Shown: piece by piece, positions 25,764 to 28,660 of the stretch | How positions within the stretch are numbered: the first letter of the stretch is position 1 | Layout: every line of letters begins with the position of its first letter | NCBI RefSeq assembly: GCF_058153355.1 | Contig: NZ_CM177019.1 | Strand: one strand, 5' to 3' | Length of the DNA stretch: 64,000 nt | Made by a program: the position numbers and the translations under genes | Notes under the pieces: model-generated | Told to the model about the DNA's origin: nothing | Seen by the model: only the letters and a program-made list of their open reading frames with translations | The model's database searches: none

Positions 25764-26414
25764 TCACCTAATACAGAATCGATCATCTGAAACATATTCA
25801 CCCATCGCTACCTTATCGCCTAATTTTATTTTTTGCTCCCTGAGTAATCGATTGATATTTCCATCATAACAAAATTTTTTTTGTCTGCTATCAAAATAAT
25901 AATATTCATCCATCATCACTTCAAATTGCTCTCCATTTTGAGGGCCTATATAGCCCAACACACCTTTAATCCATATTTTATCTTCAACATGAGTAAAAGA
26001 TATTTTTTTAAAACCAATGCAAGGAGAGTAATCATTAAAAAAATAACCTTCAAATGGTTTATTTGAGACTATTATTCTTTTATCTGGAGTAAATATAGCA
26101 ATGTTGCATCTCTGAAAATCATCTTGGACAACACCTTTAATTTTATTACTATATACAAACGGTACAATGTAATATCCATTTCCTTTACTTATCTCTCTTA
26201 TTTGATCTTCATATATATATATATTATCATATTTATCTATATGCTTCCGAGTGTAATAGATATAAGAAAGTGGCTCCAAAGCATATTTTTGCTCAACAAA
26301 GCATCTTATTTCCTTCTCAATTTCACTGTAATCAACAGATAACATAGCATAACAATGCGTATAGCAAATTAGCATCAATGTGCTAACACTGCCTCGTATA
26401 ATCAATGACAACAT
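25764..26414 (-). CDS. Hypothetical protein, candidate immunity partner of the upstream hydrolase (start uncertain)
   Basis: 216 aa, very AT-rich, Tyr/Lys-rich, no recognisable domain; N-terminus weakly hydrophobic. Confidence 0.3.
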   Translation of the reverse strand: MLSLIIRGSVSTLMLICYTHCYAMLSVDYSEIEKEIRCFVEQKYALEPLSYIYYTRKHIDKYDNIYIYEDQIREISKGNGYYIVPFVYSNKIKGVVQDDFQRCNIAIFTPDKRIIVSNKPFEGYFFNDYSPCIGFKKISFTHVEDKIWIKGVLGYIGPQNGEQFEVMMDEYYYFDSRQKKFCYDGNINRLLREQKIKLGDKVAMGEYVSDDRFCIR

Positions 26415-27408
26415 TCACCTCCTGCCTATTTCGTGTGATTTGGATAGTCTCTGTTTGCGTGTTAATAACATCATCAGAAAGAAATTTATATGTATATCTA
26501 GAGAATGCTTGCCGCTCAAAATATTGGAAACCACCACCATTTACCAACTTAGAACAAAGACCTATTGATTCTGTATTAATTCCGGAATCACAACATCTAT
26601 TAATATTAACTATTGATGGTTCTTCACTATTGACTCTATATTGTTTAGAAACCCAAAAGAAACCAGCCGAATCAGTTGATAAATATTCACTAGAGGATAT
26701 CATATTAGGGTCATAATAAGGATACCAAATTTTATTTAATGTACCATCAATATAAACCTCCGTTCTCCCTGTTTGTCTGTTTCTTCTTGTTCTTCTTGGA
26801 TCACCCCAATAATGCAAGGAGTCATGTGTTATTCTATTATCTGTATAACTCTCACTCTGATTTAAATTAGAAAGAACCAGATCACTTTGGAATTTTTTAT
26901 ACTCTTCGTAATTACCAGCCCATGTTAATTGCATCATACCTCTACCATAAAACACTTGATAATACTCCATTGCAGGCGCAGTCCAGGTTCCATCATTTTT
27001 GGGATATCCCCGACCAAACTCTGTCATTGTTCGCATCATCGCTGTTTCGGTATATATTTGCCCAAGATATAAACCTTTTCTATTAGCATTAAGAATTAAG
27101 TATTTATTACAGCATCGGTTAAAATGTTTATAGTAGCTCTCCCACCGAGATTTTGCAGATTGAAAAGAAATAGAGTCAGTTTGGGGATCTCCTGGATATC
27201 CAGCATAATAAACGCGAGGTAATAATGACGCAACTTCATCTAAAGCCAGCCATCCACATTTCCTGAAATGGCTAATGAATGTCCTGGGGTCAAAATGCCA
27301 TACTCTTCCTGCGGGTAAATCACCGCTAATGCATAATGCCCTGGCATGAGCCAGAAGTTTATCCCAGTCTGGCCTTTTCATCGGTTTTGCGGCTAAACTC
27401 ATCCTCAC
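26383..27408 (-). CDS. GH19 (chitinase/lysozyme-like) domain protein, putative peptidoglycan-targeting effector
   Basis: LGQIYTETAMMRT and EYYQVFYGRGMMQLTWAGNYEEY resemble the GH19 catalytic-region signatures; GTG start overlaps upstream ORF in a different frame. Confidence 0.45.
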   Translation of the reverse strand: MRMSLAAKPMKRPDWDKLLAHARALCISGDLPAGRVWHFDPRTFISHFRKCGWLALDEVASLLPRVYYAGYPGDPQTDSISFQSAKSRWESYYKHFNRCCNKYLILNANRKGLYLGQIYTETAMMRTMTEFGRGYPKNDGTWTAPAMEYYQVFYGRGMMQLTWAGNYEEYKKFQSDLVLSNLNQSESYTDNRITHDSLHYWGDPRRTRRNRQTGRTEVYIDGTLNKIWYPYYDPNMISSSEYLSTDSAGFFWVSKQYRVNSEEPSIVNINRCCDSGINTESIGLCSKLVNGGGFQYFERQAFSRYTYKFLSDDVINTQTETIQITRNRQEVNVVIDYTRQC

Positions 27409-28660
27409 CGTCTACCAGAAGCCAGTTAAAACGCTCCTCCAGTGAGGAGGCCTCCCATTCCTGATTGAAATGGCAAATAGCTCGCTGGCAACTACTGGCA
27501 AAATGTTTACTTCCTTTCCAGTTATTTATTGTGTCAGAATGACACTGACTGTCGTGAACAGAGTCATCATCCACCAGTCTCCATCCCATCCAGTGTGGAA
27601 AATCTCCGTCACTGTATTTTTTTATATTCGGATCAGCCAGATTTACCACTCCATGCCCCCCCGGATAATTTACTGTTCGCCAGAGCGGTGCATTGGATGG
27701 CGTCAATACCTCATGTTCACTATTAATCACCCGACCAAAGCGTAATAACTCAAATCCGGAACTGGGTCTCTGCGGATATAACTTCATTGCTGTTTTATAA
27801 AGATTATACTCATATTTATCACCGTCTTTATTAATCAATGCCTCGCCTACAGTTTCATATACATACTCATCTATCTCACCCTCACTCACTTCTTTTTTCA
27901 TTCTCGTCACCATCTCACAGTTTCCAGTATCAAATTTCATAGTAACGAACAACGGAAACATGCTGGTATAAACCGGTGACAAACCAGTGGTTTCAGCACT
28001 GTTATTTTCTGGTATCTTATCGTAGAAAATTGTGTCTACTGGTAAGTAGAAATGTATATCACCATACACAACTTCAGTTCTACCATCTTTTGTCAAATCA
28101 GTTTCTGGTTCCAGTTCTTCTCTACCTGTCAGCTTCTTTGTGTTTTCATCATCACTGAATATCTGGAAATGAAACTCTTTATCGCCATCTGCCAGGCCTG
28201 GTGTCCCTAACACATCCTTTCTGTATATCTTACTTCCCTGAGTCACTCTCCCCTCAATCTCATTCAGGTGCATATACACCGACCAGTATGTAACCTTCCC
28301 GGATTCGCCGTCACCTATTTCCGTTTCGTGTTTTATTACTACACATCCATCATCTGTTGGGCCGTTATAATTAAGCGGTGCTGAATCTCGTTTTTCAACC
28401 GATGAAGGCGTTCGGACATAAACAACTGTTCCGTCTGCAATTGCTCTGATTTTATCCTCTGCATTCGTGTACGAAATATGAATGCCGCCATGCCAGGAGC
28501 CTCGTAAATTTATAGGGTAATTTCTGAACTGATCAACTGGCATCATCCAGTCAATCCATGACTCATCAATCCCACTATTATTGGGATGAGTTAAAAAAGG
28601 AGGGCTAATTATCATTTTTAGTGTACCTTTATTAAAAAAGATAATGTAATGCTGGTACAT
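27359..28660 (-). CDS. M23/LytM-like domain protein with non-canonical active-site residues, putative effector
   Basis: WHGGIHIS...AIADGTVVYV...TYWSVYMHL...GTPGLADGDKEFHFQIF follows the M23 fold motif order, but HxxxD reads HGGIH and HxH reads FHF; 21 nt downstream of vgrG. Confidence 0.45.
   Translation of the reverse strand: MYQHYIIFFNKGTLKMIISPPFLTHPNNSGIDESWIDWMMPVDQFRNYPINLRGSWHGGIHISYTNAEDKIRAIADGTVVYVRTPSSVEKRDSAPLNYNGPTDDGCVVIKHETEIGDGESGKVTYWSVYMHLNEIEGRVTQGSKIYRKDVLGTPGLADGDKEFHFQIFSDDENTKKLTGREELEPETDLTKDGRTEVVYGDIHFYLPVDTIFYDKIPENNSAETTGLSPVYTSMFPLFVTMKFDTGNCEMVTRMKKEVSEGEIDEYVYETVGEALINKDGDKYEYNLYKTAMKLYPQRPSSGFELLRFGRVINSEHEVLTPSNAPLWRTVNYPGGHGVVNLADPNIKKYSDGDFPHWMGWRLVDDDSVHDSQCHSDTINNWKGSKHFASSCQRAICHFNQEWEASSLEERFNWLLVDGEDEFSRKTDEKARLG

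What the first reader, a model, noticed from the sequence alone, without database searches (positions are those of the whole stretch)
26383..28660. Two peptidoglycan-hydrolase-like ORFs right after vgrG overlap in different frames: one bifunctional effector split by a frameshift, or a coupled pair
The first ORF after vgrG (433 aa) carries an M23/LytM-like domain; the next (341 aa) carries GH19-like signatures. They overlap by 23-50 nt in frames offset by one, and the combined span (2278 nt = 3n+1) is what a single roughly 758-aa gene with a +1 insertion would give. An M23 endopeptidase joined to a GH19 glycosidase would be an unusual cargo effector, and neither part resembles the effector families I can recall by name (Tae, Tge, Tle, Tde).
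Basis: partly seen in the sequence, partly recalled or inferred. Interest (0 to 1): 0.75.

Follow-up and report, generated by a model that had tools for sequence, protein, structure and literature searches.

The report
Frameshift-split T6SS cell-wall toxin gene
The two overlapping reading frames after vgrG are one 759-codon type VI secretion toxin gene, an M23-like WHIX module fused to a GH19-type lysozyme, that a 2-base deletion has broken; this effector type was described in 2021-2025, so it is an ordinary decayed copy.

Summary
On the minus strand, vgrG (28682..30718) is followed by a 433-aa ORF (27359..28660) and a 341-aa ORF (26383..27408). They overlap by 50 nt in different frames.

A 97.5%-identical allele from another sample (L007) carries one continuous 759-aa ORF. 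Its only indel against the window across 3 kb is an extra AG at window 27388/27389. More distant relatives are mostly single 700-755-aa proteins. So this is one gene with a 2-nt deletion. The same deletion is in two further assemblies I aligned, so it is not a read error.

The N part has an M23/LytM fold, but it carries the WHxxxH signature of the WHIX loading domain. It is homologous over its full length to a listed WHIX effector. The C part is a GH19-like muramidase or lysozyme with its invariant Glu pair intact. This architecture is the commonest WHIX subclass I form and matches the TseP amidase-lysozyme family, so the effector is not new.

Decay is the most likely reading. tssM in the same cluster is also frameshifted, and the downstream immunity candidate is frameshifted in two sister isolates. 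No signal for programmed frameshifting was found.

The parts
28682..30718 (-). vgrG (TssI), 678 aa. It is the presumed carrier spike. Its C-terminal tail (...PVPTLQPAALKVPEADDDTTANFIFS) lies beyond the spike repeats.
   Evidence: TIGR03361 E=6.9e-161 and TIGR01646 E=7.9e-115. WHIX domains load onto VgrG C-termini (PMC12135965); binding was not tested here.
27389..28615 (-). Effector N-terminal module in its original frame: an M23/LytM-fold WHIX-type domain, residues 1-409 counted from MIISPPFL. The mechanical ORF runs 27359..28660; its last 9 codons (27362..27388) are out-of-frame tail (KTDEKARLG), followed by the stop.
   Evidence: Pfam M23 E=2.7e-6. Foldseek top 46 hits are all M23/LytM. WHGGIH, YMHL and HFQI are conserved across the family. 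hhalign against the V. alginolyticus WHIX prototype gives 97.6% probability, E=3.5e-12. Homologues start at MIISPPFL.
27388..27389 (-). Frameshift site. A 2-nt deletion (AG/GA) lies between these two bases: window AGCCGC^AAAACCG against the intact allele AGCCGCAGAAAACCG.
   Evidence: It is the only indel in a 3045-nt alignment (97.5% identity) with L007, which encodes the continuous 759-aa P0125. The junction is identical in L001 and L002.
26383..27388 (-). Effector C-terminal part in the shifted frame: a conserved linker segment (PMKRPDWDKLLAHARALC...WHFDPRTFISHFRKCGW) followed by a GH19-like muramidase/lysozyme domain.
   Evidence: It aligns to residues 402-729 of the single 730-aa E. cloacae protein P0013. 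The family profile hits GH19 endolysin 9ms7 at E=8.7e-9. The model has pLDDT 89.4 and Foldseek top 11 hits are all GH19, including TseP-C 8xcl. E112, E121 and YGRGxxQLTW are invariant.
25764..26414 (-). Candidate immunity gene, 216 aa, with a hydrophobic signal-like N-terminus. It overlaps the effector's 3' end by 32 nt.
   Evidence: Strong SD, AGGAGGTGA-ATG, dG -11.6. The same gene follows the intact allele in L007. Weak similarity (E=0.002) to the 200-aa gene after the Enterobacter homologue. No family hits. The immunity function is inferred from position only.
26211..26224 (.). (AT)7 repeat inside the immunity candidate. Sister isolates have (AT)6, which frameshifts that gene.
30935..31453 (-). 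hcp (TssD), upstream of vgrG in the same orientation.
   Evidence: TIGR03344 E=3.4e-62.

Best explanation
Window 26383..28615 (minus strand) is a single vgrG-linked T6SS cargo-effector gene of the WHIX/TseP kind that a 2-nt deletion at 27388/27389 has inactivated.

The intact protein (759 aa by the long ORF, 744 aa from MIISPPFL) has two parts:
- An N-terminal module of about 400 aa. Its first ~150 residues adopt an M23/LytM fold and carry the WHxxxH signature. By analogy with Awe1 and TseP, this module docks on the C-terminal tail of the upstream VgrG and so gets the protein fired out. It may also have Zn-dependent peptidoglycan amidase activity.
- After a short linker, a GH19-like glycosidase that would cut the glycan strands of the target cell's peptidoglycan in the periplasm.

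The 216-aa periplasm-directed product of 25764..26414 would protect sister cells.

In this strain the deletion makes translation stop 9 codons after the linker begins. That yields a toxin-less WHIX protein. The lysozyme part is left without its delivery module and without a proper ribosome-binding site.

The lesion is recent and is part of a general decay of this T6SS-1 cluster.

Shown here: one gene, the exact lesion, its presence in several assemblies I aligned, the folds, and family membership. Inferred: VgrG loading, enzymatic activities, the immunity role, and loss of function.
For: - One gene. P0125/L007 is a continuous 759-aa ORF, 97.5% identical at nt level. Its only indel against the window is AG at 27388/27389.
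- More distant relatives are single proteins. The listed best 120 of 659 ORF1 homologues are mostly 700-755 aa. P0013 (730 aa) covers ORF1 and ORF2 colinearly. Of the 51 ORF2 hits at E<=1e-30, 29 place the domain after residue 400 of 705-876-aa proteins.
- Not an error. The junction is identical in the window, GCA_015332025.1 (L001) and SRR34880751 (L002), which differ from the window elsewhere.
- Recent lesion. dN/dS against the intact allele is 0.27 for the N part and 0.33 for the C part, and all family-invariant residues are present.
- No start of its own. ORF2 start candidates have no SD, or a zero-spacing SD-like GGTGAGG. That ATG is out of frame in the intact allele.
- Family. WHGGIH motif; hhalign 97.6% to the WHIX prototype. 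There is full-length homology to P0160 (ORF1 E=1.9e-46, ORF2 E=1.9e-72). P0160's 90% cluster contains WP_129563892.1, which is in the WHIX paper's Fig 1B tree.
- Folds..
- Decay context. tssM is split by an 8-nt net deletion. The immunity candidate is frameshifted in L001 and L002. IS21 and a group II intron lie immediately downstream.
Against: - ORF2 remains fully intact, and after the shift it has an in-frame ATG (27402) preceded by a weak SD-like sequence. Some stand-alone lysozyme could therefore be made.
- TseP N and C halves were each shown to bind VgrG2 and to be secreted separately (PMC11893102), so a split need not abolish function.
- The immunity candidate is still intact in this window.
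- dN/dS well below 1 does not by itself separate 'recent pseudogene' from 'still selected'.
- The tssM lesion was seen only in the window sequence. I did not confirm it in other assemblies.
- The two papers disagree on the N module's enzymatic role: amidase in TseP, versus WHIX of Awe1 being non-toxic in the periplasm.
Confidence: 0.86

Rival explanations
1. A functional split pair. The WHIX-only protein still caps VgrG. The GH19 protein is translated separately, from ATG 27402 or by termination-reinitiation in the 23-50-nt overlap. It is then secreted on its own or through non-covalent association, so the locus still intoxicates competitors.
For: - TseP-N and TseP-C each pull down VgrG2 and are secreted separately, the C half less well (PMC11893102, read).
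- The WHIX paper notes WHIX proteins without a C-extension lying upstream of separate peptidoglycan-hydrolase genes.
- ORF2 has an in-frame ATG with a GGTGAGG SD-like element.
- Both halves keep all invariant residues.
- The immunity candidate is intact in the window.
Against: - The split is confined to near-identical isolates (>=99.9% identical). The 97.5% allele and the great majority of the listed distant homologues are fused.
- The SD-like element has zero spacing, and the ATG is a by-product of the shift.
- The immunity gene is broken in two of the three frameshift carriers, which active self-intoxication would not tolerate.
- tssM is frameshifted in the same cluster.
- The one other apparent split I examined (E. 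kobei L008) is a run of N.
Confidence: 0.07
2. Recoding. Ribosomes shift +1 on CGC-AAA-ACC, with tRNA-Lys re-pairing on the 4-A run. This would give ...EFSRKPMKRPDW..., which is the intact protein minus one Arg, so a low, possibly regulated, amount of full-length toxin would be made.
For: Read directly from the sequence, a +1 slip at AAA-A restores exactly the ancestral downstream frame. The shift would have to occur inside the 50-nt window where both frames are open, and this site lies there.
Against: - The arrangement arose from a deletion not shared by any relative outside this near-identical lineage.
- The following 0-frame codon, ACC, is not a slow codon, and there is no stop or rare codon at the A site.
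- There is no upstream SD at the spacing used in prfB.
- There is no Rfam element and no unusual RNA structure (z=0.17).
- A4 is far too short for transcriptional slippage (established knowledge).
Confidence: 0.03
3. A sequencing or assembly artefact: the gene is really intact in this genome.
For: Single frameshifts in AT-rich DNA are a common assembly error. Elsewhere in this region, the assemblies do differ at an (AT)n run and a poly-A run.
Against: - The lesion is not in a homopolymer or repeat (CGC[AG]AAAA).
- It is identical in three separately assembled data sets that I aligned, which differ by SNPs elsewhere.
- A fourth NCBI record lists matching 418-aa and 339-aa products (HFG3510046.1 / HFG3510047.1) on a 43,416-nt contig.
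Confidence: 0.02

Closest known systems
WHIX-domain T6SS effectors, subclass I with a 'chitinase-like' C-terminus (Fridman et al., PLoS Biol 2025, PMC12135965)
   Same: - An N-terminal module with the WHxxxH motif (WHGGIH here).
- Profile match to the V. alginolyticus prototype (97.6%).
- Full-length homology to a protein whose cluster mate WP_129563892.1 is in the paper's tree.
- Encoded directly after vgrG, with a C-terminal peptidoglycan glycosidase and a downstream gene with a signal-like N-terminus.
   Different: - The M23-like part is compact. H116 (YMHL) and H149 (HFQI) are 33 residues apart, whereas the prototype and TseP carry a 140-230-residue insertion there.
- Only the first WHIX region aligns significantly to the prototype.
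- Ten Enterobacterales 'M23 family metallopeptidase' relatives I looked up are absent from the paper's tree and from the held, cut part of its dataset.
- This copy is frameshifted.
TseP of Aeromonas dhakensis and its homologues AHA_1849 and PSPTO_5204 (Liang et al. 2021; Wang et al., eLife 2025, PMC11893102)
   Same: - A chimeric effector carried by VgrG: an N domain with conserved His residues and a Zn site modelled on an M23-type structure, plus a C-terminal lysozyme.
- The solved TseP-C structure 8xcl is among the fold matches of ORF2 (rank 9, prob 0.98) and among the profile hits (E=6e-4).
- The WHIX paper counts TseP among WHIX proteins.
   Different: - I had no TseP-N sequence to align.
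- TseP-N is 603 aa, against about 400 aa here; PSPTO_5204-N is 343 aa.
- TseP-C is only a remote relative: 14% identity, TM 0.40/0.54.
- Amidase and lysozyme activities are shown for TseP and are only inferred here.
GH19 endolysins and chitinases (e.g. PWe2 9ms7, SPN1S endolysin 4ok7, Streptomyces ChiC 1wvu)
   Same: - Same fold (Foldseek prob 1.00 for the top hits, TMt 0.5-0.63).
- Same motifs: a catalytic-type Glu pair (xIYTET...MTEFGRG) and YGRGxxQLTWxxNY.
   Different: - ORF2 is about 330 aa, against 180-250 aa.
- It has extra beta-strand insertions and a C-terminal beta-hairpin.
- It falls below the Pfam GH19 threshold (E=0.36).
- It is fused to a T6SS delivery module instead of being a phage or secreted enzyme.
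Canonical M23/LytM peptidases (lysostaphin, LytM, ShyA) and degenerate LytM factors (EnvC, DipM)
   Same: Same fold over about 115-160 residues and a significant Pfam PF01551 hit. The AIADGxV and YxHL motifs are present.
   Different: - HxxxD is HxxxH.
- The first His of HxH is absent (EFHFQI).
- There is an extra module of about 250 residues.
- The documented role of the WHIX version is VgrG loading, not Gly-Gly or D,D-endopeptidase activity.
Tse4 of Acinetobacter baumannii (Le et al., PNAS 2021; known to me only through citation in PMC12135965)
   Same: A single T6SS effector reported to combine two peptidoglycan-cleaving activities with one immunity protein.
   Different: Different domains: lytic transglycosylase plus endopeptidase, according to the citing paper and my own recollection. 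No homology was tested here.

Membership tests
WHIX T6SS effectors | Conserved WHxxxH motif in the first WHIX region | tested here: met
   WHGGIH lies at residues 41-46 counting from MIISPPFL. W41, H42 and H46 are >=90% conserved in the 38-sequence family alignment and are present in all 14 relatives inspected.
WHIX T6SS effectors | Homology to the first WHIX region (residues 31-126) of the V. alginolyticus prototype WP_005373349.1 | tested here: met
   The prototype sequence was read from the paper's S1 File. hhalign of family profile A2 gave probability 97.6%, E=3.5e-12, template residues 26-131. Pairwise BLASTP E=3e-4.
WHIX T6SS effectors | Homology to the second WHIX region (residues 271-476 of the prototype) | tested here: inconclusive
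   A relaxed hhalign run extends over the whole module. It pairs ICxFPxEW with FIVKHPTDW, but with low per-column confidence. Only 452 prototype residues were available.
WHIX T6SS effectors | Relationship to a protein listed as WHIX by the authors | tested here: met
   P0160 (792 aa) matches ORF1 over 1-399 (E=1.9e-46) and ORF2 over 31-340 (E=1.9e-72). Its 90% cluster contains WP_129563892.1, which is in the Fig 1B tree and the C-terminus file. Ten closer Enterobacterales accessions and five further relatives' accessions were not found.
WHIX T6SS effectors | Encoded in a T6SS genome next to vgrG, with a C-terminal peptidoglycan-targeting domain and a flanking signal-peptide immunity gene | tested here: met
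   Gene order is hcp-vgrG-effector-216-aa gene inside a T6SS cluster. GH19-like C domain. The signal peptide was judged by eye only, as no predictor was available.
WHIX T6SS effectors | T6SS-dependent secretion through binding of the VgrG C-terminal tail | not testable with these tools
   This needs secretion and pull-down assays. No complex prediction was available.
TseP-family amidase-lysozyme chimeras | N domain with conserved Zn-binding or catalytic His residues (H19, H23, H109, H339, H359 in TseP) | tested here: inconclusive
   H42, H46, H96, H116 and H149 are >=90% conserved in the family and present here. One-to-one correspondence with the TseP residues could not be checked, because no TseP-N sequence was available.
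TseP-family amidase-lysozyme chimeras | C domain structurally like TseP-C (PDB 8xcl) | tested here: met
   Foldseek rank 9, prob 0.98, TM 0.40/0.54. Profile hit E=6.1e-4. The relationship is remote (14% identity).
TseP-family amidase-lysozyme chimeras | Amidase and lysozyme activities on peptidoglycan | not testable with these tools
   Requires peptidoglycan digestion with LC-MS.
Peptidase family M23 (canonical, catalytically active) | Pfam PF01551 match and M23/LytM fold | tested here: met
   E=2.7e-6. 8 of 41 relatives hit at E<=0.001. Foldseek top 46 hits are all M23/LytM.
Peptidase family M23 (canonical, catalytically active) | HxxxD and HxH zinc/catalytic motifs | tested here: not met
   The sequence shows WHGGIH (Asp replaced by His) and EFHFQI (first His of HxH absent). 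The same holds across the family consensus WHGGxH...IHFEI. The motif definitions come from established knowledge of M23.
Glycoside hydrolase family 19 | Significant Pfam PF00182 match | tested here: not met
   E=0.36 over 26 residues. 0 of 41 relatives reach E<=0.001.
Glycoside hydrolase family 19 | GH19 fold, catalytic Glu pair and the YGRGxxQLTW/NY signature | tested here: met
   The profile hits GH19 endolysin 9ms7 at E=8.7e-9 and GH19 chitinases at 1.7e-5. Foldseek top 11 hits are all GH19. E112, E121, G146, R147, G148, Q151, T153 and W154 are invariant. The catalytic role of the Glu pair is inferred from alignment to GH19 enzymes.
Programmed ribosomal frameshift genes | Two-frame organisation conserved among homologues, with a shift site plus stimulator | tested here: not met
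   The great majority of listed homologues are single-frame. There is no Rfam element and no unusual structure, z=0.17.

The most novel reading that the evidence does not exclude
The 2-nt deletion has created a natural 'split effector' that still works. The WHIX-only product keeps the VgrG spike assembly-competent. The GH19 lysozyme reaches targets either as a separately translated protein that binds VgrG or WHIX non-covalently, or as a trace of full-length protein made by a +1 slip on CGC-AAA-ACC. That would make this lineage a natural experiment on whether WHIX/TseP halves function in trans.
Probability: 0.06. Interest if true: 0.4.

Novelty: new member of a known kind. Interest (0 to 1): 0.15.

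Why it matters
The main value is corrected annotation. GenBank lists the two halves as an 'M23 family metallopeptidase' (EGO8353532.1) and a 'hypothetical protein' (EGO8353531.1). They are one frameshifted WHIX/TseP-type effector gene.

It also shows that a compact, Enterobacterales-wide branch of this class belongs with the WHIX effectors. These proteins are about 730 aa and are often mis-named 'hydroxyethylthiazole kinase'. The relatives I looked up are absent from the published WHIX list.

Together with the broken tssM and the broken immunity alleles, it documents T6SS-1 decay in an E. coli lineage.

The intact allele (P0125) and its 216-aa partner would be a convenient E. coli pair for testing two things: whether the WHIX module is an enzyme, and whether the two halves work in trans.

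Tried and rejected
- NCBIfam and PADLOC scans of ORF1, ORF2 and the three downstream ORFs found nothing except VgrG.
- Single-sequence phmmer of ORF1 and ORF2 against PDB gave only spurious hits.
- Megablast of 25700-28700 against 5,426 complete E. coli genomes gave no match. The cargo module is therefore rare in E. coli, although the flanking T6SS is common.
- The word-indexed search with ORF2 found only 2 proteins. The exhaustive representative search was needed.
- I looked for independent natural splits. The E. kobei 400-aa + 328-aa pair turned out to be an assembly gap of N. The short stand-alone hits P0169 and P0193 start at contig ends and are uninformative.
- Pfam on the 306-aa downstream ORF found nothing.
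- Looking up 10 Enterobacterales accessions in the WHIX supplements found nothing. Only a Paraburkholderia relative was present.
- Rfam and RNA folding at the shift site were negative.
- I considered and rejected a 1-nt T insertion in GAGTTTAGC as the lesion, which was my first guess from the distant homologues. The 97.5% allele shows instead that the frame is kept through EFSR and that AG is missing.
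Full report
**What is in the sequence**

All genes of interest are on the minus strand. The order is hcp (30935..31453), vgrG (28682..30718, 678 aa; TIGR03361 E=7e-161), a 433-aa ORF (27359..28660), a 341-aa ORF (26383..27408), a 216-aa ORF (25764..26414), then 339-aa and 200-aa ORFs.

The 433-aa and 341-aa ORFs overlap by 50 nt, or by 44 or 23 nt with the internal ATGs. The second ORF is in the +1 frame. Both frames are open only between 27411 and 27362. The span is 2278 nt = 3n+1. 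GC falls from 58-62% in vgrG to 29-44% in the cargo region.

**One gene or two**

ORF1 is exactly GenBank EGO8353532.1, 'M23 family metallopeptidase [E. coli]'. It has 659 detectable homologues. The listed best 120 are mostly 700-755-aa proteins of Enterobacter, Pantoea, Hafnia, Citrobacter and others. They are named 'M23 family metallopeptidase', 'predicted chitinase' or, wrongly, 'hydroxyethylthiazole kinase'.

The 730-aa E. cloacae protein P0013 aligns colinearly with ORF1 (its residues 1-393) and with ORF2 (its residues 402-729). It sits directly after a vgrG and before a 200-aa gene.

An exhaustive search with ORF2 gave 328 hits. Of the 51 hits at E<=1e-30, 29 place the domain after residue 400 of 705-876-aa proteins. 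Most of the rest are fragments.

The decisive evidence comes from the 90% cluster of ORF1. It contains P0125, a 759-aa protein on contig L007 from a different sample. L007 is 97.5% identical to the window over 3045 nt, with 73 substitutions. The only indel is AG, present in L007 and absent from the window between 27389 and 27388: AGCCGCAGAAAACCG against AGCCGC--AAAACCG. Putting AG back gives a 2280-nt ORF that reads ...DGEDEFSRRKPMKRPDWDKLL.... Because all outgroups are single-frame, the window state is a derived 2-nt deletion.

**Is the deletion real?**

The region 24001-31500 is 99.9% identical to an E. coli draft genome (GCA_015332025.1, L001) and to an independent read-set assembly (SRR34880751, L002). 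Both carry the identical junction while differing from the window at other positions. A fourth record gives matching 418-aa and 339-aa products. The lesion is not in a homopolymer. A sequencing artefact is therefore very unlikely.

**What the two parts are: the N part**

The N part hits Pfam Peptidase_M23 at E=2.7e-6. Its AlphaFold model (pLDDT 88.5) matches only M23/LytM structures in its top 46 PDB hits, over 115-160 residues.

Its motifs are not canonical, however. It has WHGGIH in place of HxxxD and EFHFQI in place of HxH, and this holds across the family.

WHxxxH is the eponymous motif of the WHIX domain (Fridman et al. 2025, PMC12135965). That module is sufficient for T6SS secretion and loads onto the C-terminal tail of VgrG. 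In its commonest form (subclass I) it is followed by a 'chitinase-like' domain, in 2,242 of 4,434 proteins.

I read the prototype's sequence from the paper's structure file. The family profile matches its first WHIX region with 97.6% probability, E=3.5e-12. The second region aligns only weakly.

A full-length relative, P0160, has a cluster mate, WP_129563892.1, that is listed in the paper's tree. Ten closer Enterobacterales accessions are not listed.

The WHIX paper counts TseP of Aeromonas dhakensis among WHIX proteins. Wang et al. 2025 (PMC11893102) report three things about TseP. TseP-N is a Zn-dependent peptidoglycan amidase. TseP-C is a lysozyme. [quoted passage not shown]

**What the two parts are: the C part**

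By itself the C part barely touches Pfam GH19 (E=0.36). A family profile, however, hits the GH19 endolysin 9ms7 (E=8.7e-9) and GH19 chitinases (about 1e-5). The model (pLDDT 89.4) matches only GH19 endolysins and chitinases in its top 11 hits, including TseP-C 8xcl. The Glu pair and the YGRGxxQLTW signature are invariant in the family and intact here.

**Functional state**

The frameshift falls in the inter-domain linker. ORF1 ends 9 out-of-frame codons later, and those residues are modelled as disordered.

ORF2 has no proper ribosome-binding site. The best candidate start, ATG 27402, has an SD-like GGTGAGG with zero spacing, and that ATG is out of frame in the intact allele. By contrast, the immunity candidate has AGGAGGTGA-ATG.

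dN/dS against the intact allele is 0.27 for the N part and 0.33 for the C part. The lesion is therefore recent relative to the 2.5% divergence.

Three observations point to decay rather than to a functional split:
- tssM, an essential membrane-complex gene of the same cluster, is split into 981-aa and 208-aa ORFs by a net 8-nt deletion relative to an intact E. coli tssM.
- The immunity candidate is intact, with (AT)7, in the window and beside the intact effector in L007. It is frameshifted, with (AT)6, in L001 and L002, which both carry the effector frameshift.
- IS21 and a group II intron lie immediately downstream.

No Rfam element and no unusual RNA structure accompany the shift site.

A +1 slip of tRNA-Lys on CGC-AAA-ACC would recreate the protein minus one Arg. 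This can be read from the sequence, but nothing suggests it is efficient.

**Comparison and verdict**

This is a frameshifted allele of a WHIX/TseP-type, vgrG-linked, peptidoglycan-degrading cargo effector in the E. coli T6SS-1 cluster. The fadE gene in the window matches the E. coli-specific model. The orthologous vgrG in strain N96 carries a different cargo.

The 'unusual, unlike known families' part is not, because the architecture is the commonest WHIX form and TseP is a characterised example.

Two mildly new points remain. This compact Enterobacterales branch appears to be missing from the published WHIX list. And the lineage offers a natural split that could test function of the halves in trans. 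Interest is low.

Noticed in passing
window 46349..49868 (+), lesion at about 49262-49267: tssM is split into a 981-aa ORF (TIGR03348 positions 2-963) and a 208-aa ORF (positions 965-1168). The cause is a net 8-nt deletion relative to the intact tssM of E. coli Z1323HEC0462, which is 98.3% identical. The T6SS apparatus of this strain is probably non-functional.
   Followed up: partly
window 26211..26224, inside 25764..26414 (-): An (AT)7 dinucleotide repeat lies in the candidate immunity gene. The window and the intact-effector allele L007 have 7 units (216-aa ORF). L001 and L002 have 6 units, which splits the gene into a 69-codon signal-peptide stub and a 154-aa remainder. This could be decay, phase variation or assembly noise.
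   Followed up: partly
window 25875..25882: A T8 run (A8 on the coding strand) near the 3' end of the immunity candidate is one base shorter in L002.
   Followed up: no
window 24047..25566 (-): A 306-aa ORF (start MANGEIF at 25566; the mechanical ORF is 339 aa) is followed by a 4-nt-overlapping 200-aa ORF with a clear signal peptide. The 306-aa protein belongs to a rare family of stand-alone hypothetical proteins in E. coli, Salmonella and Xenorhabdus, with no Pfam, NCBIfam or PADLOC match. This may be a second effector-immunity pair of unknown activity.
   Followed up: partly
window 19684..23123 (-): IS21 (istA 21951..23123, istB 21154..21954) and a group II intron reverse transcriptase/maturase (19684..21105) sit directly downstream of the cargo genes. 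At the orthologous locus of E. coli N96, vgrG is followed by an M35 metallopeptidase, PAAR, a second vgrG and Tla1/Tle1/Tli1. The vgrG island is therefore highly variable and here is probably truncated by mobile elements.
   Followed up: partly
window 24000..28500 versus 29000..30500: GC content is 29-44% in the effector and immunity genes but 58-62% in vgrG. This marks the cargo module as horizontally acquired. The TseP paper notes the same pattern for tseP.
   Followed up: no
window 28615..28660 (-): The 433-aa ORF begins 15 codons upstream of the start used by all homologues (MIISPPFL). The upstream ATG has no SD (dG +0.4), while the 28615 ATG has a weak one (dG -3.9). NCBI records exist with both starts (433 aa and 418 aa).
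   Followed up: yes
homologues of ORF1; WHIX paper supplements: Many NCBI and JGI records of this effector family are mis-named 'hydroxyethylthiazole kinase'. Ten Enterobacterales 'M23 family metallopeptidase' accessions of the family are absent from the published WHIX tree and the held part of its dataset, although a Paraburkholderia relative is included.
   Followed up: partly
L008 2644..4987 (Enterobacter kobei GCA_040794605.1): An apparent 400-aa + 328-aa split of the homologous effector is caused by a run of N (a scaffold gap), not by a mutation.
   Followed up: yes
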